From NCBI GenBank assembly GCA_035945735.1, contig DASYZY010000123.1, forward strand, positions 1-44,540: DNA of 44,540 nucleotides, given 5' to 3'. This stretch comes from Thermoplasmata archaeon. GTDB taxonomy: Archaea > Thermoplasmatota > Thermoplasmata > Lutacidiplasmatales > UBA184. Below, piece by piece: positions 10,251 to 28,799 of the stretch. The notes beneath the pieces are model-generated. The model saw nothing but the letters and a program-made list of their open reading frames with translations, was not told the origin of the DNA and searched no databases. Every line of letters starts with the position of its first letter. Position 1 is the stretch's first letter. The position numbers and the translations under genes were made by a program.

Positions 10251-10322
10251 CTGGTGACTCGGATCTGCCTTTGCTTGGATCGGAGCTCGAAGTGGCGAAT
10301 CTACACGCGGGTAGCGCCGATG

Positions 10323-10339
10323 GGAGTGCGGGCACCGGG
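10323..10339. repeat. attL core: 17-bp perfect direct repeat GGAGTGCGGGCACCGGG
   Basis: Identical to 28777-28793, which covers the 3'-terminal 13 nt of tRNA-Gly plus 4 nt. Extended similarity is 30/36 over 10311-10346 versus 28765-28800. Confidence 0.8.
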
Positions 10340-10408
10340 GTTCGAGGACTGAACCTCGGGAGCCTTGCCTACCTCGACCCCGGTTTGCTACTTCGCGAGG
10401 GGCCTTGA

Positions 10409-10647: not shown

Positions 10648-10995
10648 GTGATCACGCTCGAGTTCCGGTTCTGGCGAGAGCTCAATCTGCAGCGGAGGAA
10701 ACCCTTCGGCTGCCCCGACTGCCGGCACACCTTCGCGACGACAACCGTGATCCCGCGACACCTGCGGAACGAGCATCCTCGATGGATCCCGTTCTTGAAC
10801 GCTCGGGAGGTGATGAAGAACCCTCGACCAACGCCTCGAGCTGAACTCTGGAAGGATCCCGAGTTCAGAGCCCGGAACGCAGCCGCCGTCCGGGCGACCC
10901 TCGACAAGCGTTGGAAGGATCCCGAGTTCAGAGCCCGGAACGCAGCCGCGCTCGAAGCGTGGTACAACCGCGGCCGAACTGGCGGTGCGAGTTGA
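10648..10995 (+). CDS. C2H2 zinc-finger protein with duplicated WKDPEFRARNAAA motif
   Basis: CPDCRHTFATTTVIPRHLRNEH fits C-x2-C-x12-H-x4-H. The C-terminal half contains two copies of a 13-aa motif encoded by a 38-bp perfect DNA repeat. Confidence 0.65.
   Translation: MITLEFRFWRELNLQRRKPFGCPDCRHTFATTTVIPRHLRNEHPRWIPFLNAREVMKNPRPTPRAELWKDPEFRARNAAAVRATLDKRWKDPEFRARNAAALEAWYNRGRTGGAS
10849..10949 (+). repeat. 38-bp perfect direct repeat (10849-10886 and 10912-10949), period 63 bp, intragenic
   Basis: TGGAAGGATCCCGAGTTCAGAGCCCGGAACGCAGCCGC occurs twice in frame within the C2H2 gene. Confidence 0.9.
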
Positions 10996-11561: not shown

Positions 11562-11721
11562 CAACCCGGGTTGAACAGGGGTCGCCCAACCCGGGTTGCA
11601 ACCCGGGTTCACGTCGAGAGGAGGCCTCGAATGCCCCCCGCTGAGGCGGTTCCAACCCGGGTTGACACCGGGTTGAGGGCGTCGATCGCGCACGGGCCGG
11701 AGAAGGACTGGGACCGGGTTG
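11562..11721. promoter_or_regulatory. array of the 12-bp palindrome CAACCCGGGTTG (3 perfect, one 11/12, two half sites): candidate operator or origin
   Basis: Perfect copies are at 11562-11573, 11587-11598 and 11653-11664. An 11/12 copy is at 11599-11610. Half sites ACCGGGTTG are at 11667-11675 and 11713-11721. The array straddles the start region of the RHH gene. Confidence 0.6.
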
Positions 11722-22559: not shown

Positions 22560-23071
22560 GCGACGGGGACATCCACCCCGAGATCGAACTCCCCCCGTGG
22601 GAGCGAGAGGACGTCTACAAGGTCCCGGTGGTCCGCGGGGGTCGTCCCGACCTCCCCGGCATCGAGCAGGAGCAGGAGGCGCTCCTCCGCCTGATCGGGA
22701 CCCTCCCGAAGGACCTCGCCTGGTGGCCGGGCCACGGGAACGCGCTCCAGGTCGCCTATGAGGTGCGCGCCCGGCTCCTCCCTCGGATCAACGTGATCAC
22801 CCTCGGCCGCTGGCAGGAAGACGCCTACATCTGGTTCTTCCTCCTCGGCCCGGGCCCGAAGGACTACCGCTGCGCCACGCTCTGCATCCCCCACCCCACC
22901 GACGCCGCGTGGCTCTCCGGGAAGATCCCGCGCGAGCTGCTCTACCGCGGGGAGCGGAACCGGAACCTCCTCTCGAAGCACGTCATGGAGGCGTCCGCCC
23001 GGGCGATGCGCGAGGAGCAGGCCCGCCACTGGGTCCTCGCCCCCGAGCTCTCCAGCGACCGGGACCGATGA
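22556..23071 (+). CDS. hypothetical protein
   Basis: The GTG at 22556 overlaps the upstream stop (GTGA). The 171-aa product has soluble-protein composition and no recognised motifs. Confidence 0.6.
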   Translation: MSDGDIHPEIELPPWEREDVYKVPVVRGGRPDLPGIEQEQEALLRLIGTLPKDLAWWPGHGNALQVAYEVRARLLPRINVITLGRWQEDAYIWFFLLGPGPKDYRCATLCIPHPTDAAWLSGKIPRELLYRGERNRNLLSKHVMEASARAMREEQARHWVLAPELSSDRDR

Positions 23072-24075: not shown

Positions 24076-24309
24076 ATGAACCGATTCGACCTGCAGTTCT
24101 GGGAGGGCGCCCGGGAATCGGCGCTCGCGATCTACGACTTCGTGAAAGGCCGCCCCGACGTACCCCTCGAGGTGAGAGAGTTCGTCCTCAGGGTCCTCGT
24201 CAGCGCCGGCGAGAAGAAGAACCGAGACTTCAGAGAGTCCATCGGCGCTGAAGTCAGCGCCGCCCGGGAGAAGGCCTGGTCCGCTGTGACTCCGGCGGTC
24301 AGGCGTTAA
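24076..24309 (+). CDS. hypothetical small protein
   Basis: 77-aa ORF with balanced composition. Its stop overlaps the stop of the convergent minus-strand gene. Confidence 0.45.
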   Translation: MNRFDLQFWEGARESALAIYDFVKGRPDVPLEVREFVLRVLVSAGEKKNRDFRESIGAEVSAAREKAWSAVTPAVRR

Positions 24310-24647
24310 TCGAACTGCCTAAGGACGCTCCTCGCGAGGAGGAAGGCCGACGCCGAGAGGGCGAGCAACGCGAAGAGGACGATCTCGAGCCCGATGATCG
24401 CCACCGACTCCGCCGCCGGTAGGTTGGACAGGACCGTGCCCGAGGTGTAGCACGACGTGGTCCCGTTGAAGTCGCTGCAGGTCGTGTACGGCTCGAGCAG
24501 AGCAGCCCCTACCGCTACTTGAGCTCCGATGAAGACCAGGAGGAGCGCGAGGCTCCGGAGCGCGTAAGCGCGTAGTCGGTCGCGGTGGGCCCGGGGCATT
24601 CGGTCCCAACGAGAGAGCAGGCCGCGGGAAGGTTGGTTCGGGATCAT
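24306..24647 (-). CDS. small 2-TM membrane protein with Cys-containing extracellular loop
   Basis: The internal ATG at 24647 overlaps the stop of the upstream RHH gene (ATGA on the minus strand). TM1 is LALLLVFIGAQVAVGAALL and TM2 is VAIIGLEIVLFALLALSASAFLL. Confidence 0.6.
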   Translation of the reverse strand: MIPNQPSRGLLSRWDRMPRAHRDRLRAYALRSLALLLVFIGAQVAVGAALLEPYTTCSDFNGTTSCYTSGTVLSNLPAAESVAIIGLEIVLFALLALSASAFLLARSVLRQFD

Positions 24648-24859
24648 TCCCGTCGACGGACCGCTCCCGGCGGCGCCCCAAGCGGGTGCTCCTTTTTCCA
24701 GCGCTCGATCTTCTCCTTCAGAGCCTCTCGGACGAACTCCACGCGGTCGAACCACCGTGGATCCGCCCTCATGATCTCGAGCATCTCGTCGTGGATCCTC
24801 CGAGGGATCGTGACCCCGACCCGCTCGTAGTCGGTCGTCGAGCGCTTTTTCCCGGGCAC
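24644..24859 (-). CDS. ribbon-helix-helix (CopG-family) DNA-binding protein
   Basis: RVGVTIPRRIHDEMLEIMRADPRWFDRVEFVREALKEKI fits the CopG/RHH pattern. The GTG start lies about 27 nt from a TATA-like element, consistent with a leaderless transcript. Confidence 0.8.
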   Translation of the reverse strand: MPGKKRSTTDYERVGVTIPRRIHDEMLEIMRADPRWFDRVEFVREALKEKIERWKKEHPLGAPPGAVRRRE

Positions 24860-24880
24860 CCACGGGCGACAACGGTCCGC

Positions 24881-24927
24881 CGATAAAGACTAAATACAGC
24901 GGTGATTATGGAATACTGTAATCACCC
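24881..24927. promoter_or_regulatory. divergent promoter with operator-like inverted repeat GGTGATTA-N10-TAATCACC
   Basis: The AT-rich ATAAAGACTAAATA (24883-24896) lies between divergent starts at 24859 (minus) and 24928 (plus). The 8-bp inverted-repeat arms are at 24901-24908 and 24919-24926, ending 1 nt before the plus-strand ATG. Confidence 0.6.
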
Positions 24928-25140
24928 ATGGTCCCGAAGGAACACCGAGGGTACGCCGCGACCGAGGGAGAAGGGAATGGGTCGGCCCAGAACACCACGA
25001 TTCGCCTCAGGCGCGAGACTGTCGAAGAGCTGCGCCCCCTCAAGCAGAAGGGGTTCGGCGCCGAGGAGACCTGGGACCACTTCATCCGACGGGTTACTGG
25101 CCTACCCGAACTCGAGCTCTCCGATGGGGTCCCCGCGTGA
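24928..25140 (+). CDS. COG1753/VapB-like putative antitoxin-type DNA-binding protein
   Basis: TTIRLRRETVEELRPLKQKGFGAEETWDHFIRRV matches the archaeal pattern 'tI.v.eet...L..lK...eSf.dvIrrl'. No PIN-domain partner follows. Confidence 0.5.
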   Translation: MVPKEHRGYAATEGEGNGSAQNTTIRLRRETVEELRPLKQKGFGAEETWDHFIRRVTGLPELELSDGVPA

Positions 25141-25466
25141 GCGCCGACCCCGAGCCCGGCGCGATCAGCACCTTCCTCGACATCTCGACGCACGAGACGA
25201 CCGAGGGAGGCCTGCATGTCTACTCTCTCGGGGAGAAGCTCGCCCGCAACCGAGCCGACCGGTCCCTCCGGCTCTCGGGGCTCGTTCTCTCGGTCAACTT
25301 CCTCCTCGTCTTCGTTGTTGGCGTCGCCACGCTCTACCTCGGGCTCCCGCCAGGGAACGAGAACTGGGGCGCGCTCTACAACCTCGCCCTCGGCGCAGCC
25401 GTGGGTTGGGCGGTCTCTGCCTGGGCCGCGTGGATGGTCTTCTGGCGCGGGAGGCCTGACGCGTGA
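25137..25466 (+). CDS. small 2-TM membrane protein
   Basis: GTGA overlap with the upstream gene. TM segments are LVLSVNFLLVFVVGVATLYLGL and LALGAAVGWAVSAWAAWMVFW. Confidence 0.55.
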   Translation: MSADPEPGAISTFLDISTHETTEGGLHVYSLGEKLARNRADRSLRLSGLVLSVNFLLVFVVGVATLYLGLPPGNENWGALYNLALGAAVGWAVSAWAAWMVFWRGRPDA

Positions 25467-25729
25467 GCGCAACGGCGACCCTCGACGATTGGATCCGTCC
25501 TGGAGAGGTCGTCCCTGAGATCCTCGAACTCGCGCGCAGCTCGGGCCCCGCCGGCTTCACCGTCGAAGACCTCCGCCTTCGCGGACTCTTCACCGCCAAC
25601 CTCGGCGCCCCTCTCGGACGTCTCTGCGCGCAGGGCTGGCTCCGGGTGATCGGTGACGAGCCCTCGAAGTTCCGCACCTCGAAGGGCCGCCACGTCCGCC
25701 GCTTCGCGATCGGACCGGAGGCCCCGTGA
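25463..25729 (+). CDS. small winged-helix-like protein, hypothetical
   Basis: GTGA overlap. 88 aa; FTVEDLRLRGLFTANLGAPLGRLCAQGWLRVIG resembles a wHTH recognition helix plus wing. Confidence 0.45.
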   Translation: MSATATLDDWIRPGEVVPEILELARSSGPAGFTVEDLRLRGLFTANLGAPLGRLCAQGWLRVIGDEPSKFRTSKGRHVRRFAIGPEAP

Positions 25730-25980
25730 ACCGCCCCGAGTGGATCCGGTTCAAGGAGATGGACCCGGAGTGGCAGGCGCGCGACGAGCTCGCGCGGCAG
25801 AAGTCGCGAGCAAAGGACGCAACCAAACGCCGGTACACCCGGTCGGAACGCTACCTCCGTCGAATGGCGGCGAACAAGCGGAGGAAGTACCGGGATGACC
25901 CGGTCTACCGCGAGCAGCAGAAGGCGCGCTGCCGCGAGTACGGCCGCCGTCTTCGAGCGACCCGCCGGAGCGCCCGATGA
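25726..25980 (+). CDS. small basic protein, hypothetical
   Basis: GTGA overlap. 84 aa, Lys/Arg-rich with a helical character (RQKSRAKDATKRRYTRSERYLRRMAANKRRKYR). Confidence 0.45.
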   Translation: MNRPEWIRFKEMDPEWQARDELARQKSRAKDATKRRYTRSERYLRRMAANKRRKYRDDPVYREQQKARCREYGRRLRATRRSAR

Positions 25981-26558
25981 GCGGCGCCGACTTCAAGGAC
26001 GGGAACGAGGTCCGAGATGAGGAGCGGGCGGCAATCGCCAAGCGGTTCCGATACCACGAGGACGCCTCGCCGAGCTCGGCGACCCTGGTGGTTCGTCCAG
26101 AGGTTGGCCTCGCAGAAGCCTGCGCCGTCTGGAACGATTTTTTGAAACTCCGTGACGAGATCCTCGCCGACCCGGCCTGCTTCGACATCCTCGACGGGCA
26201 CAGGGAGATGAACCGCACGGGCGCAACTCGCCTCGCACTCCCGTTCGGTCTCTCGATCCAGGAGCGCGACATCGAGGAGGGGCGAGTCGAACTCGCGGAT
26301 GAGGGCCAGTTCGACTACCGCTTCCGAGTTCGGGTCCGAGTCTCGAAGGGCGCGCGGTTCGTCGACAACATCGGCTCCTGCCGTCTCTCCGAGATCCCCG
26401 AGCGGACTCGCGACAAGGGCCACCCCGGAACGGTCGACTTCAAGCCGGGCCACGCGGTCCCGCTCTCCCAGCGCGAGCACTTCGCGCTGAGCAAGGCCTG
26501 GACGCGCGCGGTGAAGCGCGCGATCGCCGACATCCTGGGGGGTGTCGAAGCGGAGTGA
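25977..26558 (+). CDS. hypothetical protein, possible Rad52/Sak-type single-strand annealing protein
   Basis: ATGA overlap. The C-terminal REHFALSKAWTRAVKRAIADILGG resembles the conserved A..KRA...FG helix of Rad52-superfamily annealing proteins. This is a weak, motif-level call only. Confidence 0.3.
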   Translation: MSGADFKDGNEVRDEERAAIAKRFRYHEDASPSSATLVVRPEVGLAEACAVWNDFLKLRDEILADPACFDILDGHREMNRTGATRLALPFGLSIQERDIEEGRVELADEGQFDYRFRVRVRVSKGARFVDNIGSCRLSEIPERTRDKGHPGTVDFKPGHAVPLSQREHFALSKAWTRAVKRAIADILGGVEAE

Positions 26559-26561
26559 GTC

Positions 26562-26777
26562 TTGCCGGGCCGTCCGACGCTCCTTCGGACCCTCGCGTGC
26601 GCCCTGTTCGGCTGCGCCCCCGATCCGGCCACGGTCTGGGTCGCCTCGGACGGATGCCACGGGACCTTGTGCTCGCTCTGTCGCAGGTGCGGGCTGCCCA
26701 GTTGGACCCCACTCCCCGGCCAACTCGCCGGCGTCGTCGTGCAGCTGGACGCACCGCCGAGATCGTCTTCGAGGTGA
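26562..26777 (+). CDS. small Cys-rich (zinc-binding?) protein
   Basis: The TTG start lies 3 nt after the previous stop. There are 7 Cys in 71 aa, including CSLCRRC. The gene fills the gap exactly before the ASCH gene. Confidence 0.35.
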   Translation: MPGRPTLLRTLACALFGCAPDPATVWVASDGCHGTLCSLCRRCGLPSWTPLPGQLAGVVVQLDAPPRSSSR

Positions 26778-26784
26778 CCCGAGG

Positions 26785-27105
26785 ATGATCTTCACGCGGG
26801 CCAACATCGGGAAGATCTCAGCTGGTGAGAAGACCGAGACTCGGCGAATCTGGAAGAGGCCCCATGTCCGCGTCGGGGGCGTCTACAGAGTTCGGTCAAG
26901 TCGACGCCTCCCTGCGGACCCGGCTGACCCACAGATACGAGTGACCGACCTTCGCTCCGAACTCCTGGGCGAGATCACCGCAGAGGCCGTCCTTCGGGAA
27001 GGCTGCTCGAGCCTGGAGGAGTTCGTTCTCCAGTGGCAGGACCTCCACGGCGAGTGGGACCCGAAACAAGCGGTCTACATCGTCGATTTCGAGGTCGTAC
27101 CATGA
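26785..27105 (+). CDS. ASCH domain protein
   Basis: The N-terminal MIFTRANIGKISAGEKTETRR matches the G-x-K-T-x-E-x-R ASCH motif. The C-terminal part is EAVLREGCSSLEEFVLQWQDLHG. 106 aa. Confidence 0.6.
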   Translation: MIFTRANIGKISAGEKTETRRIWKRPHVRVGGVYRVRSSRRLPADPADPQIRVTDLRSELLGEITAEAVLREGCSSLEEFVLQWQDLHGEWDPKQAVYIVDFEVVP

Positions 27106-27491
27106 CCGACCCGTGGGACAACGAACTCGCCGAGTACGAGGCTGCTCGAGTCGCATTCGAGGCGAAGCACAAGCAGGAAGGCGCGGTCTTCTCCCGGGCA
27201 ACCGCCGTCGCGAAGGCCGACGCCGCGACAGCCTCGACGCGGATCGAGGCCGAGTACTCGAACAAGGTCCGCGAAGCGAAGTCGGAACTCGCCGCGACCG
27301 CCCGTCGAGTGAAGGCTCAACTCGCCGACTTCCGGCTCACACGCGACGCGCTGCTACGGGCGGAGTCTCGGAAGCTGGACGGGCTGCTCGCACCAGCGAG
27401 GCAGGCCAGGTCGATGGCGCTGACGGACCTTCGCAAGGCCAAGGACGAGGCCTGGGCCCGTTACAAAGCGAAGAGGTGGCCCGAGTCGTGA
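27102..27491 (+). CDS. coiled-coil protein, hypothetical
   Basis: ATGA overlap. 129 aa, Ala/Lys/Glu-rich with a heptad-like helical sequence. Confidence 0.5.
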   Translation: MTDPWDNELAEYEAARVAFEAKHKQEGAVFSRATAVAKADAATASTRIEAEYSNKVREAKSELAATARRVKAQLADFRLTRDALLRAESRKLDGLLAPARQARSMALTDLRKAKDEAWARYKAKRWPES

Positions 27492-27691
27492 TCAGCGACG
27501 TCCCTCGTCCAGCCCCCGAGCGCTGGGACCGACCTTCGGTCGAGACCCGGCGCGCATCCGACCCTTGCGGCGTCTGCGGATTCCCGATCGCCGACTCCCA
27601 GGAGGCTCTCAGCGTGCCCCACGTCGGCGGTCCCGACTCCTGGATTCACAAGGTCTGCCCGAAGGTCTCCTGCACGGGGGTCGCACGGTGA
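27488..27691 (+). CDS. small zinc-ribbon-like protein
   Basis: GTGA overlap. The motif is CGVCGFPIADSQ...HKVCPKVSC (CxxC...CxxxxC). Confidence 0.4.
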   Translation: MISDVPRPAPERWDRPSVETRRASDPCGVCGFPIADSQEALSVPHVGGPDSWIHKVCPKVSCTGVAR

Positions 27692-27846
27692 AGGCGCTCC
27701 AGGCTCATTTCTCGACGGCGCACGGCTACTGGCGCTTCAAAATCCTCAAGCAAACACAGCCGGTCGAACGGACCGATAGAAGGGCGCGCTGGCGCAGGAA
27801 GGTGAGGAGGGCAACCGTCCGTTCCGGACCCTCCGATTCCGCGTGA
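27688..27846 (+). CDS. very small basic ORF, hypothetical
   Basis: GTGA overlaps at both ends link it to the upstream gene and the integrase. 52 aa with no motifs. Confidence 0.3.
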   Translation: MKALQAHFSTAHGYWRFKILKQTQPVERTDRRARWRRKVRRATVRSGPSDSA

Positions 27847-28799
27847 CGATCGACTTTGCCCGCTACCGCTCCTGGTGCCTCGCCCAGGGCCACAGCCTAC
27901 GGACCGTCCAGAAGTCGGTCCGCTACCTCGTCCACTTCGCCGAGGACAAGGGGCTGGGGCTCGCGCCCGAGCTGCTCAACGAGGACGCGGTGATCGAGTT
28001 CGTCGCGCGCTGCCGTGAGCGAGGCACCCACCCGAAGACCCTGAACAACTACGTCCGCGAGCTCAACCTCTGGAGCCGGTTCAACCACCTCGGCTGGAAG
28101 CTGTCCTACTTCCGCCGCCACGCCCCGGTCCTGATGGATCTCCTCGGGCCCGACGACGAGGACCGTTTGCGGGCCGTTCGATTTGTCGATCCCGCGGTCA
28201 ACTCGAGGAACCGCGCGATGCTACTCCTGAGCCTCGACCAGGGGCCCCGCCGCGACGAGATGCTCCAGATGAAGCTCTCCGACCTGGTCGACACTCCGGC
28301 GGGCGGGAAGGGCGTCCTAGTGCGCCGCGGGAAGGGTGACCGCCCGCGCCTGCTCTACCTCGCCCCCGAGACGTGGCGCGAGATCTCCAGCTACGTCGAG
28401 ACCTACCGCATCCGATCGGACGCTTCAGCGCTGTTCACCGCGCGACGCGGCCCGGTCTCGTACGGCATGATGGGGAAGCTCGCGAAGGACATCGGCCGCG
28501 CCGCCGGCGTCCCGAACTTCAGTTGGCACCGCGGGCGCCACCGGATGATCGACGCGATGCTCGATCGAGGGGTCTCGCTCCCGGCAATCCAGGAGGTCGC
28601 GGGCCACTCGAAGGCCGAGACGACCGTCGCCTACGCGAGCCGCCGCGCGCTCAGGTCGCTGACCGAGCGCGAGGTACGATACTTCCAAAAGCGCCGTTTT
28701 GAGCCGATCCAGCCACGAGCCCCCGTCGAGCCGGGCGGGGACGAAGTGGCAAATGTATCCGCGAGTAGCTCGGATAGGAGTGCGGGCACCGGGATTTGA
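27843..28799 (+). CDS. int: tyrosine recombinase / integrase (XerC/D-phage integrase family)
   Basis: It has an N-terminal SAM-like core-binding domain. Catalytic-region motifs are GPRRDEML (Arg), HRGRHRMID (H-x-x-R) and GHSKAETTVAYA (His...Tyr). The last 19 nt overlap the tRNA-Gly gene. Confidence 0.9.
   Translation: MTIDFARYRSWCLAQGHSLRTVQKSVRYLVHFAEDKGLGLAPELLNEDAVIEFVARCRERGTHPKTLNNYVRELNLWSRFNHLGWKLSYFRRHAPVLMDLLGPDDEDRLRAVRFVDPAVNSRNRAMLLLSLDQGPRRDEMLQMKLSDLVDTPAGGKGVLVRRGKGDRPRLLYLAPETWREISSYVETYRIRSDASALFTARRGPVSYGMMGKLAKDIGRAAGVPNFSWHRGRHRMIDAMLDRGVSLPAIQEVAGHSKAETTVAYASRRALRSLTEREVRYFQKRRFEPIQPRAPVEPGGDEVANVSASSSDRSAGTGI
28777..28793. repeat. attR core: 17-bp perfect direct repeat GGAGTGCGGGCACCGGG
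   Basis: Identical to 10323-10339. It spans the tRNA-Gly discriminator, the 3' acceptor strand and the 3' T-stem strand, plus 4 nt downstream. Confidence 0.8.

What the first reader, a model, noticed from the sequence alone, without database searches (positions are those of the whole stretch)
24306..25466. Mirror-image switch locus: divergent promoter with an operator-like inverted repeat, flanked on each side by a small DNA-binding gene coupled to a 2-TM membrane gene
The only minus-strand genes of the element are a CopG-type RHH (24644-24859) and a 113-aa 2-TM protein (24306-24647), overlapping by ATGA. They diverge from a plus-strand pair with the same logic. That pair is a VapB/COG1753-like small DNA-binding protein (24928-25140) GTGA-coupled to a 109-aa 2-TM protein (25137-25466). 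The 68-bp spacer between the divergent starts is the most AT-rich spot in the element. It contains ATAAAGACTAAATA, placed for leaderless or near-leaderless transcription both ways. It also contains a GGTGATTA-N10-TAATCACC inverted repeat ending 1 nt before the plus-strand ATG. This looks like a lysogeny/maintenance versus early-gene switch. The paired membrane proteins could be superinfection-exclusion or immunity factors, or toxin-like partners. The VapB-like protein lacks its usual PIN partner.
Basis: partly seen in the sequence, partly recalled or inferred. Interest (0 to 1): 0.6.

Follow-up and report, generated by a model that had tools for sequence, protein, structure and literature searches.

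The report
Two-repressor control hub, archaeal provirus
A 68-base gap between two back-to-back small DNA-binding genes is the conserved control hub of an integrated mobile element in an uncultured archaeon, probably its on/off switch, but the two membrane genes that made it look like a mirror image are accessory cargo found only in this copy.

Summary
The four ORFs, the ATGA and GTGA overlaps, the 68-bp spacer and the GGTGATTA-N10-TAATCACC repeat ending 1 nt before the ATG are all present. The spacer has the lowest GC of the whole window.

Comparison with about 35 related loci splits the finding in two.

**Conserved part.**
- The divergent pair of small genes recurs in 22 of 30 loci of the host family and in 5 of 5 metagenome loci.
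- Spacer length is nearly fixed, at 68 nt in the close relatives and 62 nt in a second subgroup.
- An A/T box (ATAAAG-N3-AAATAC) lies exactly 22-23 nt from the minus-gene start, which matches the host's own leaderless-promoter geometry.
- An element-specific inverted repeat sits between that box and the plus-gene start.

**Protein families.** Both proteins are ribbon-helix-helix (RHH) by profile-profile comparison only. The minus one resembles CopG/NikR-N. The plus one resembles the N-terminal half of VapB (PF02697).

**Not conserved.** The two 2-TM partners are unrelated to each other. One is an orphan and the other belongs to a rare family. Relatives carry a Zn-finger gene, or nothing, in those positions. 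The "mirror image" is therefore incidental.

**Best reading.** This is a two-RHH maintenance/early-operon switch, analogous to phage P22 immI (Mnt/Arc) and SSV1 F55. No expression or binding data exist.

The parts
24306..24647 (-). TMm: a 113-aa two-pass membrane protein, translationally coupled (ATGA) to RHHm. It is accessory cargo in a variable slot. Conserved motifs are WDRMPRAHRDR..AY.LRG, TM1, a Cys-containing loop, TM2 and SAFLxARSVLRQFD.
   Evidence: The ORF and overlap are. GC1/2/3 is 0.63/0.50/0.83 and the TM segments are 33-51 and 81-99. Only 4 homologous clusters exist among 1.84 billion representatives (alignment). It was not found in 180 family genomes or 400 class genomes. It is absent from this position in relatives.
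24644..24859 (-). RHHm: a 71-aa ribbon-helix-helix protein and the candidate maintenance repressor. Its mRNA is predicted to be leaderless.
   Evidence: Homologues occur in 39 of 180 family genomes and 32 of 401 class genomes. hhalign against RHH_1/NikR-N members gives Prob 83%, P=8.5e-6 over residues 11-61. Marginal hits all fall on the same region: the HicB3 RHH domain, NikR and RHH_8/5/1. AF2 gives pLDDT 69, an extended N-terminus and helices 20-32 and 36-57. The start is fixed by the N-termini of homologues (MPGKKRS).
24860..24927 (.). 68-bp divergent control region, the lowest-GC stretch of the window.
   Evidence: Spacer length is conserved at 68, 68, 68, 68 and 67 nt in five close loci and at 62 nt in most (11) subgroup-2 loci.
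24883..24897 (.). Bipartite A/T box ATAAAGACTAAATAC. CTTTAT (minus sense) is the TATA box for RHHm, 23 nt from its GTG. TAAATAC (plus sense) is the TATA box for RHHp, 30 nt from its ATG.
   Evidence: The same box sits at the same 22-23 nt distance in L080, L051, L034 and L052, with a variant in L054. In the host genome A/T boxes peak 25-33 nt before start codons, and (T/A)AAATAC is a common host form.
24901..24926 (.). Candidate operator, the inverted repeat GGTGATTA-N10-TAATCACC. It spans about -20 to +6 of the predicted RHHp transcription start and ends 1 nt before the ATG.
   Evidence: Shuffle P is 0.0025. It is unique in the window. Inverted repeats occupy the analogous position in L050 (GGGTGA-N6-TCACCC), L037, L052, L034 and subgroup 2.
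24928..25140 (+). RHHp: a 70-aa protein resembling the N-terminal RHH part of VapB. It is the first gene of the plus-strand operon and a candidate counter-regulator or autoregulator.
   Evidence: hhalign of its family against PF02697 members gives Prob 85%, P=6e-6 over residues 24-62. There is no Pfam hit above threshold, and the PF02697 search of the own genome does not find it. The AF2 model is poor, with pLDDT 57 and helices 29-42 and 49-57. It is adjacent and divergent to RHHm in 22 of 30 plus 5 of 5 loci.
25137..25466 (+). TMp: a 109-aa two-pass membrane protein, GTGA-coupled to RHHp. It is an orphan.
   Evidence: GC3 is 0.88. There is no homologue in 5.8 billion clusters by word-indexed search. 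Only compositional hits appear in 180 family genomes. Relatives have an 80-aa Zn-finger gene at this position.
25463..28799 (+). Remainder of the operon driven from the hub: an 88-aa wHTH-like protein, an 84-aa basic protein, a 193-aa conserved protein, an ASCH protein, further genes and the tyrosine integrase beside tRNA-Gly.
   Evidence: The order RHHp - (Zn finger) - o88 - o193 - nuclease - integrase is conserved in L050, L054 and L039-L041.
24076..24309 (+). o77: a conserved 77-aa protein (MNRFDLQFWEGAREsALAIY...) convergent on the RHHm side. It is the last gene of the plus-strand circle.
   Evidence: Homologues lie near RHHm in L034, L035, L036, L037, L039, L041-L043, L048, L050-L052, L054 and L059.

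Best explanation
The locus is the transcriptional control hub of an 18.5-kb integrated element, provirus-like or plasmid-like, in a Thermoplasmata-type archaeon.

**Promoter layout.** Two back-to-back archaeal promoters share one 15-bp A/T box.
- Leftward, the box drives a leaderless mRNA for RHHm, a CopG/NikR-type ribbon-helix-helix protein, together with a cargo membrane gene (TMm).
- Rightward, it drives a near-leaderless mRNA that starts inside the right arm of the inverted repeat. This mRNA encodes RHHp, a VapB-N-like RHH protein, followed by the early/replication/integrase genes.
- In the circular form the rightward transcript direction would continue round through every other gene of the element.

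**Proposed mechanism (inferred, not shown).**
- In the integrated state RHHm is made and binds the GGTGATTA-N10-TAATCACC operator, which lies between the TATA box and the start site of the rightward promoter.
- Binding there blocks RNA polymerase recruitment and silences the element. RHHm's own promoter, about 15 nt beyond the operator, stays free.
- RHHp, as first product of the derepressed operon, acts as the counter-regulator or autoregulator (Arc/Cro-like).

**Membrane genes.** TMm is cargo co-expressed with the repressor, possibly an exclusion factor. TMp is an element-specific early gene. Neither belongs to the conserved switch.
For: **Shown.**
- The host is an archaeon with TBP.
- An integrase lies next to tRNA-Gly, with an att-like repeat.
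- All genes except RHHm-TMm are on the + strand.
- The divergent RHHm/RHHp pair is present in 22 of 30 family loci and 5 of 5 metagenome loci.
- Spacer length is conserved at 68/68/68/68/67 nt, and at 62 nt in most (11) subgroup-2 loci.
- The CTTTAT box sits at a fixed -29..-24 from the RHHm start in 8 of 10 loci.
- Host-wide, A/T boxes peak 25-33 nt before start codons, and the host TATA form (T/A)AAATAC equals the window's TAAATAC.
- Inverted repeats adjoin the RHHp start in several loci: WIN P=0.0025, L050, L037 P=0.014, combined P about 4e-4. Subgroup 2 has them too.
- Both proteins have an RHH fold by profile-profile comparison.
- The downstream operon ending in the integrase is conserved.

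**Suggestive that RHHm is the binder.**
- WIN and L050 share the RHHm beta-strand ERVGVTIP and the half-site GGTGA/TCACC, while their RHHp strands differ (TTIRLRR against TSIPVSH).
- L035 has an RHHp strand like L050's but an altered RHHm strand, and it has no GGTGA..TCACC site.
- L034 keeps an ATAGCG-N10-CGCTAT repeat beside the box although it has no RHHp gene.
Against: - There are no expression or binding data.
- Family assignment of both proteins rests on hhalign probabilities of 83-85% and on marginal HMM hits. No Pfam or NCBIfam threshold is met.
- The AF2 models are mediocre (pLDDT 69 and 57), and Foldseek found nothing.
- In four of seven close loci the repeat near the RHHp start is no better than in shuffles.
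- The argument for which protein binds rests on three or four loci.
- An inverted repeat abutting the first gene of an operon is equally typical of autoregulation by that gene's own product.
Confidence: 0.55

Rival explanations
1. The promoter hub is the same, but the inverted repeat is the autoregulatory operator of RHHp. In this reading RHHp is an Arc-, Cro-, antitoxin- or Aca-like first gene that damps its own operon. RHHm acts elsewhere, for example on the A/T box itself or on its own promoter.
For: The repeat ends 1 nt before the RHHp start codon. RHHp's nearest family, VapB (PF02697), consists of autorepressors of their own operons (established knowledge; similarity). In subgroup 2 the repeat overlaps the RHHp ATG. 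Early-gene RHH autoregulators are known in archaeal viruses (Aca8, SvtR, AvtR; PMC11065993, PMC5569661).
Against: WIN and L050 share the GGTGA/TCACC half-site and the RHHm beta-strand but not the RHHp beta-strand. L035 shares L050's RHHp strand but not the site. L034 has a repeat in the equivalent place without any RHHp gene. The sample is small.
Confidence: 0.25
2. RHHm-TMm is a toxin-antitoxin-like addiction or abortive-infection pair. An RHH antitoxin would be coupled to a small membrane toxin that stabilises the element, with RHHp-TMp as a second such pair.
For: Both pairs have 4-nt start/stop overlaps with the RHH gene upstream, the canonical type II layout. Both downstream products are small two-pass membrane proteins. 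Other loci have different genes coupled behind RHHm (L036, L051, L080, L163).
Against: Most RHHm homologues have no coupled downstream gene. The RHHm C-terminus (EKIERWKKEHPLG) is invariant whatever follows it, so it is not a toxin-specific neutralising tail. RHHp lacks the C-terminal toxin-binding half of VapB, and in relatives its partner is a Zn-finger protein. TMm has strongly conserved cytoplasmic termini rather than a generic pore-former look.
Confidence: 0.07
3. The A/T-rich spacer with its inverted repeat is, or doubles as, the element's replication origin or unwinding element rather than a repressor operator.
For: It is the lowest-GC spot of the window. No recognisable replicase or origin has been found in the element (first-reader note e1-3327627; Pfam scans).
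Against: It is only 68 bp and has no iterons. Its length and the distance of the box from both start codons are conserved exactly as promoter geometry requires. The repeat sequence is not conserved between elements, while the box is.
Confidence: 0.05
4. The inverted repeat has no function. It is a chance palindrome in an ordinary divergent promoter.
For: About 20 distinct perfect repeats of this size occur in the element. Four of seven close relatives have no significant repeat at the site.
Against: Shuffle P is 0.0025 at the site. The same placement is found in L050 with the same half-site, in L037, L052 and L034, and throughout subgroup 2.
Confidence: 0.08

Closest known systems
Phage P22 immI region (mnt | arc-ant, with sieA beside mnt)
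   Same: Two small RHH repressors are transcribed divergently from a short shared control region. One (Mnt) is made in the lysogen and shuts the opposite promoter. The other (Arc) is the first gene of that operon and feeds back on both promoters (PMC11016777). From my own memory, not checked here: sieA, an inner-membrane exclusion gene, lies on the mnt side, which would parallel TMm behind RHHm.
   Different: P22 is bacterial and sigma-70 driven, and immI is a secondary immunity region that controls an antirepressor. Here the promoters are archaeal TATA/TFB type and leaderless. The hub appears to be the only divergent promoter of the whole element, and the regulated operon carries replication and integrase genes. 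There is no detectable sequence relationship, and RHHm and RHHp are not related to each other (hhalign Prob 0.1%).
SSV1 F55, the RHH lysogeny regulator of a spindle-shaped archaeal virus
   Same: It is a small RHH dimer made in the carrier/lysogenic state. It binds sites overlapping the TSS/BRE of early promoters and its own promoter and acts as a molecular switch (PMC5569661).
   Different: F55 recognises tandem direct repeats (ATAGATAG) at four promoters. Here there is a single inverted repeat, unique in the element, and a second divergent RHH gene. The host phylum is different, and RHHm finds no homologue in the phage or plasmid collections.
VapB antitoxins of archaeal VapBC systems (Pfam PF02697, COG1753)
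   Same: The N-terminal beta-alpha-alpha DNA-binding part of RHHp aligns with PF02697 members of the same archaeal class (hhalign Prob 85%).
   Different: RHHp scores below every HMM threshold. It lacks the C-terminal toxin-binding half and has no PIN gene next to it. In relatives its conserved partner is an 80-aa Zn-finger protein.
CopG / NikR-N type RHH regulators (Pfam RHH_1, PF01402)
   Same: The RHHm family aligns over the whole RHH unit with RHH_1 members of the host family, which are mostly NikR N-domains (hhalign Prob 83%). The secondary-structure order fits.
   Different: It is not a member by Pfam or NCBIfam thresholds. It carries a family-specific invariant C-terminal extension, EKIERWKKEHPLG. 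It is confined to mobile elements of uncultured Thermoplasmata.
Lambda cI-rexA-rexB and other repressor-linked exclusion genes
   Same: A cargo gene, here a membrane protein, sits directly behind the maintenance repressor and is co-transcribed with it. This is established knowledge for lambda, recalled and not checked here. The slot behind RHHm is variable and holds membrane, GRAM-like or other genes in relatives, with a TIR-like gene nearby in L054.
   Different: There is no sequence or fold link, and the function of TMm is untested.

Membership tests
Ribbon-helix-helix superfamily (CopG/Arc/MetJ; Pfam RHH_1 PF01402), tested on RHHm | Scores above the curated HMM threshold of an RHH family | tested here: not met
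   The window protein has no RHH hit in Pfam. Homologues give only marginal RHH_8, RHH_5 and RHH_1 hits (E 0.07-0.26). The NCBIfam NikR hit has E=0.06. The PDB HicB3 RHH domain hit has E=0.8.
Ribbon-helix-helix superfamily (CopG/Arc/MetJ; Pfam RHH_1 PF01402), tested on RHHm | Profile-profile similarity across the whole beta-alpha-alpha unit | tested here: met
   hhalign of A2 against 30 RHH_1 members of the host family gives Prob 83.4%, P=8.5e-6, over residues 11-61. The control, A2 against VapB, gives 0.3%.
Ribbon-helix-helix superfamily (CopG/Arc/MetJ; Pfam RHH_1 PF01402), tested on RHHm | N-terminal strand followed by two helices, forming an intertwined dimer | tested here: inconclusive
   The AF2 monomer has an extended N-terminus and helices 20-32 and 36-57, with pLDDT about 83 in the helices and 69 overall. 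Foldseek against PDB found no hit. The dimer could not be modelled.
VapB antitoxin (PF02697 / COG1753), tested on RHHp | Scores above the PF02697 threshold | tested here: not met
   No PF02697 hit at E<=1 for RHHp or any of 10 homologues. The six-frame PF02697 search of the own genome finds only contig C33.
VapB antitoxin (PF02697 / COG1753), tested on RHHp | Homologous N-terminal DNA-binding domain | tested here: met
   hhalign of A1 against 18 PF02697 members gives Prob 85.3%, P=6e-6, over RHHp residues 24-62 against positions 2-36 of the VapB alignment.
VapB antitoxin (PF02697 / COG1753), tested on RHHp | C-terminal toxin-binding segment and an adjacent PIN (VapC) gene | tested here: not met
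   The alignment stops at VapB position 36 of 62. The downstream gene is a 2-TM protein in the window and a Zn-finger protein in relatives.
Type II toxin-antitoxin module | The antitoxin and a specific toxin partner are co-conserved | tested here: not met
   TMm and TMp are absent from about 35 homologous loci. Most RHHm genes stand alone.
Divergent two-repressor immunity switch (P22 immI / lambda cI-cro type) | Two divergently transcribed repressor genes share a short control region | tested here: met
   The pair is present in 22 of 30 plus 5 of 5 loci. Spacers are 56-87 nt, with modes at 68 and 62 nt.
Divergent two-repressor immunity switch (P22 immI / lambda cI-cro type) | Operator(s) overlap the core promoter(s) | tested here: met
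   At the sequence level only. The repeat at 24901-24926 lies between the TATA box (centre about 24894) and the predicted TSS (about 24920), using host geometry.
Divergent two-repressor immunity switch (P22 immI / lambda cI-cro type) | Mutual or hierarchical repression giving two stable states | not testable with these tools
Superinfection-exclusion membrane proteins (SieA, RexB, HK97 gp15 type) | A membrane protein expressed from the prophage that blocks incoming related elements | not testable with these tools
   Only the topology (two TM segments, N-in/C-in) and the position behind the putative repressor are known.

The most novel reading that the evidence does not exclude
RHHm and RHHp form a bistable two-RHH switch that controls an entire archaeal mobile element from a single 68-bp bidirectional leaderless promoter hub. 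Its operators are element-specific and define immunity groups across a whole family of Thermoplasmata proviruses. TMm, co-transcribed with the repressor, would be the first archaeal counterpart of repressor-linked exclusion proteins such as RexB and SieA.
Probability: 0.15. Interest if true: 0.6.

Novelty: new member of a known kind. Interest (0 to 1): 0.4.

Why it matters
Lysogeny and maintenance control is understood experimentally for only a few archaeal viruses, with SSV1 F55 as the main case (PMC5569661). Nothing is known for the mobile elements of uncultured, high-GC Thermoplasmata.

This locus offers a compact, testable regulatory module:
- two RHH proteins of about 70 aa;
- one 68-bp DNA fragment;
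- dozens of natural variants in which protein beta-strands and operator half-sites can be compared.

The geometry of the module also documents how one A/T box can serve two leaderless promoters in this lineage.

The practical correction for annotators is that the membrane genes are not part of the switch. They occupy variable cargo slots, which are good places to look for exclusion or defence genes.

Tried and rejected
- Direct HMM scans (Pfam, NCBIfam, PHROGs) of all four proteins gave nothing above threshold.
- PDB profile searches gave only marginal hits.
- The AF2 models were mediocre, and Foldseek against PDB found no match for either. This approach added little beyond the order of the helices.
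- The word-indexed homologue search found only 4 relatives of RHHm and none of RHHp or TMp.
- The search for related loci gave little in the metagenome collection (3 loci, 1 informative) and nothing useful in the genome or viral collections.
- The contexts of the four TMm homologues (P0008-P0011) could not be retrieved under the tool rules. Whether they also sit behind an RHHm gene is therefore unknown.
- RHHm has no homologue in the phage or plasmid collections.
- Considered and rejected: that the two halves are a duplication. TMm against TMp gives BLASTP E>1, and the RHHm and RHHp families give hhalign Prob 0.1%.
- Considered and rejected: that the 188-aa or 185-aa long frames are the real genes. 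They have the wrong codon-position GC.
- Considered and rejected: that bacterial promoter or terminator scans are relevant. The host is an archaeon, and no sigma-70 site was found.
Full report
**1. The observation**

- RHHm is 24644-24859 (-), with a GTG start. TMm is 24306-24647 (-). They overlap by ATGA.
- RHHp is 24928-25140 (+), with an ATG start. TMp is 25137-25466 (+). They overlap by GTGA.
- The starts are 68 bp apart.
- ATAAAGACTAAATA lies at 24883-24896.
- GGTGATTA-N10-TAATCACC lies at 24901-24926 and ends 1 nt before the ATG.

In this 71% GC genome, real genes have GC1/GC2/GC3 of about 0.65/0.48/0.85. All four ORFs show that signature, and the competing 188-aa and 185-aa frames do not. 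The N-termini of homologues (MPGKKRS...) fix the RHHm start. An in-frame TAA three codons upstream fixes the RHHp start.

Hydropathy gives two TM segments in each membrane protein, with positive charges on the N- and C-terminal sides.

The spacer has the lowest GC in the whole window, at 0.30 over 40 nt. Every other ORF of the element with a coding signature is on the + strand.

An 8-nt perfect inverted repeat is not rare in itself. About 20 distinct ones occur in the element. Within the 30 nt before the ATG, however, it beats 99.75% of shuffles. It is also unique in the window.

**2. Setting**

The genome encodes TBP, so it is an archaeon. Its GC is 0.71 and the assembly is 71% complete.

The locus lies in an element bounded by a tyrosine integrase (27843-28799) next to tRNA-Gly and by an att-like repeat at about 10288-10345 and 28742-28799. 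This agrees with earlier notes of this scan.

If the element circularises, all + strand genes would read in one direction, from the RHHp promoter round to o77 (24076-24309). The RHHm-TMm pair converges on o77. On strand layout alone, the 68-bp spacer is therefore the only divergent promoter region of the element.

**3. What is conserved**

*Distribution of RHHm.* RHHm has homologues in 32 of 401 sampled genomes of the class and in 39 of 180 genomes of the family. Four closer relatives (56-65% identity) occur in metagenomes. No homologue was found in the phage or plasmid collections.

*The divergent pair.* HMMs of the two protein families were run on six-frame translations of 30 family loci and 5 metagenome loci. 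An RHHp-family gene lies divergent and adjacent to RHHm in 22 of 30 and in 5 of 5. One of the metagenome loci has only 49% GC (L059).

*Spacer lengths.* After correcting start codons by alignment, the spacer lengths are as follows.

| Locus or group | Spacer (nt) |
|---|---|
| Window, L080, L052, L035 | 68 |
| L051 | 67 |
| L050 | 77 |
| L054 | 61 |
| L037 | 56 |
| Most (11) loci of subgroup 2 | 62 |

*The A/T box.* In the close subgroup the layout is the RHHm start, then 22-23 GC-rich nt, then ATAAAG-N3-AAATAC, then about 30 nt, then the RHHp start.
- The box is ATAAAGACTAAATAC in the window.
- It is ATAAAGCCCAAATAC in L080 and L051.
- It is ATAAAATCTAAATAG in L034.
- It is ATAAAGTTTAACTAC in L052.
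- The CTTTAT half sits at -29..-24 from the RHHm start in 8 of 10 loci.

*The downstream operon.* The order RHHp - Zn-finger - wHTH - o193 - nuclease - integrase recurs.

**4. What is not conserved**

- TMm and TMp are unrelated to each other.
- TMp has no homologue.
- TMm has four homologous clusters among 1.84 billion representatives. They share cytoplasmic motifs (WDRMPRAHRDR......ARSVLRQFD) and a Cys-containing outer loop. No member was found in 180 family genomes or 400 class genomes.
- In relatives the gene coupled to RHHp is an 80-aa Zn-finger protein in at least 14 loci.
- Most RHHm genes have no coupled gene. The exceptions are a 175-aa membrane protein (L051), a 199-aa one-TM protein (L163), a 177-aa GRAM-like protein (L036) and a soluble ORF (L080). 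L054 has a TIR-like gene nearby.

No related locus repeats the 'RHH + 2-TM on each side' pattern. The mirror image is an accident of what happens to occupy two cargo slots. It is not a design.

**5. Protein families**

No curated HMM reaches threshold for either small protein.

*RHHm.* Its marginal hits all fall on the same beta-alpha-alpha stretch:
- the HicB3 RHH domain;
- the NikR N-domain;
- RHH_8, RHH_5 and RHH_1 in homologues.

I built alignments of bona fide family members from genomes of the same lineage and compared profiles.
- The RHHm family against RHH_1/NikR-N gives Prob 83%, P=8.5e-6, over residues 11-61.
- The RHHp family against PF02697 (VapB) gives Prob 85%, P=6e-6, but only over the N-terminal 35 residues of VapB.
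- The cross-comparisons are negative: RHHm against VapB 0.3%, RHHp against RHH_1 14%, and RHHm against RHHp 0.1%.

The AF2 models show an extended N-terminus followed by two helices in both proteins, at modest confidence. Foldseek returned nothing.

Neither protein is a member by threshold. RHHp lacks both the toxin-binding half of VapB and a PIN partner.

**6. How it most likely works**

*Host promoter geometry.* In the host genome, A/T-rich octamers are enriched 25-33 nt (peak 28-29) upstream of the start codons of well-supported ORFs. No purine-rich Shine-Dalgarno region follows, so leaderless transcripts are the norm. A frequent host box is (T/A)AAATAC.

*RHHm promoter.* The RHHm box centre is 27 nt from its GTG, which predicts a leaderless mRNA.

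*RHHp promoter.* The TAAATAC box centre is 34 nt from the RHHp ATG. That predicts a transcription start at about 24919-24922 and a leader of 6-9 nt.

*Position of the repeat.* The inverted repeat then spans about -20 to +6 of the rightward promoter. Archaeal repressors that sit in this position block polymerase recruitment (principle reviewed in PMC5569661). The left arm lies about 15 nt beyond the RHHm TATA box, so RHHm's own promoter need not be blocked.

*Which protein binds is an inference.*
- The window and L050 share the RHHm strand ERVGVTIP and the GGTGA/TCACC half-site. The spacing is N16 against N6 between these 5-mers, a difference of one helical turn. Their RHHp strands differ.
- L035 has an RHHp strand like L050's, an altered RHHm strand, and no such site.
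- L034 keeps a repeat (ATAGCG-N10-CGCTAT) beside the box without having an RHHp gene.

These points favour RHHm as the repressor of the rightward operon and RHHp as an Arc/Cro-like counter-regulator or autoregulator. Autoregulation by RHHp is the main rival, which I put at about 0.25.

*Subgroup 2.* Here the whole 62-nt spacer is quasi-palindromic around a single CTTATAGA box, with GTAACG next to the RHHm start and CGTTAC next to the RHHp start. One regulator could therefore touch both start sites.

**7. Comparison with known systems**

- The closest functional analogue is phage P22 immI. Its two divergent RHH repressors are Mnt, which represses arc-ant, and Arc, which represses mnt and moderates ant (PMC11016777).
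- In archaea the closest is SSV1 F55, an RHH lysogeny regulator that binds at early promoters (PMC5569661). F55 uses tandem direct repeats at several promoters and has no divergent RHH partner.
- The position of TMm behind the putative repressor recalls lambda rexAB and P22 sieA. I recall these from memory and did not check them here.
- A toxin-antitoxin reading is disfavoured. Neither membrane partner is co-conserved with its RHH gene, and the invariant C-terminal tail of RHHm does not vary with what follows it.

**8. Verdict**

The real and conserved feature is a two-RHH divergent control hub of an undescribed family of Thermoplasmata mobile elements. It is a new member of a known kind of switch.

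The paired membrane genes are incidental cargo.

I score interest at 0.4. The module is a clean, testable regulatory unit in a little-known lineage, but it is not surprising in kind.

Noticed in passing
window 24076-24309 (+); homologues in L034-L043, L048, L050-L052, L054, L059: A 65-77-aa protein (MNRFDLQ[FY]WEGAREAALAIYE...GE[RK]KN[KR].FRE) is conserved beside or near the RHHm gene in most related elements, usually convergent on it. This includes a locus with 49% GC. No Pfam, NCBIfam or PHROG family matches it.
   Followed up: partly
L141-L160 (subgroup-2 loci), spacer between the RHHm and RHHp homologues: The 62-nt spacer is quasi-palindromic around a single CTTATAGA box. GTAACG lies 4-10 nt from one start codon and CGTTAC lies 1-7 nt from the other, with extra TTCGTA/TACGAA copies. 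This looks like one TATA box serving both directions, with symmetric operators.
   Followed up: partly
L054:532-1005 (-) (G480 contig C29): In this relative, a 157-aa protein with a sub-threshold TIR_2 match (E=1.7e-4) lies about 190 nt downstream of the RHHm homologue. A defence-type domain sits in the cargo region next to the putative repressor.
   Followed up: no
G000 contig C41:6640-6828 (L049): There is a second, truncated RHHm-like ORF in the same genome. Only the C-terminal half is homologous (DNA 80% identical over 85 nt) and the beta-strand is missing. It lies next to a 551-aa HATPase-like gene and may be a remnant of another element.
   Followed up: partly
window 11563-11660: A cluster of overlapping perfect palindromes is built on AACCCGGGTTG, with several copies within 100 nt. 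It lies near the start of another small ORF that a first-reader note calls RHH-like. It may be a second operator region of the element.
   Followed up: no
window 10849-10886 and 10912-10949: There is a perfect 38-nt direct repeat with 63-nt spacing just inside the left end of the element.
   Followed up: no
window 24226-24262: Nested inverted repeats (GACTTCAG-N14-CTGAAGTC and CGGCGCTGA...) lie in the 3' end of o77, where the plus-strand genes meet the convergent TMm gene.
   Followed up: no
window 22647-22742 (-): ARAGORN calls a 96-nt tRNA-Pro(CGG) inside the coding region of the 171-aa ORF. Rfam does not support it, so it is probably a false positive.
   Followed up: partly
L052 (NCBI GCA_054637635.1, labelled Acidimicrobiales bacterium): This contig carries the archaeal-type RHHm/RHHp pair with a 68-nt spacer, plus an o77 homologue. 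Either the contig is mis-binned or the label is wrong. The RHHp gene was not called in the record.
   Followed up: partly
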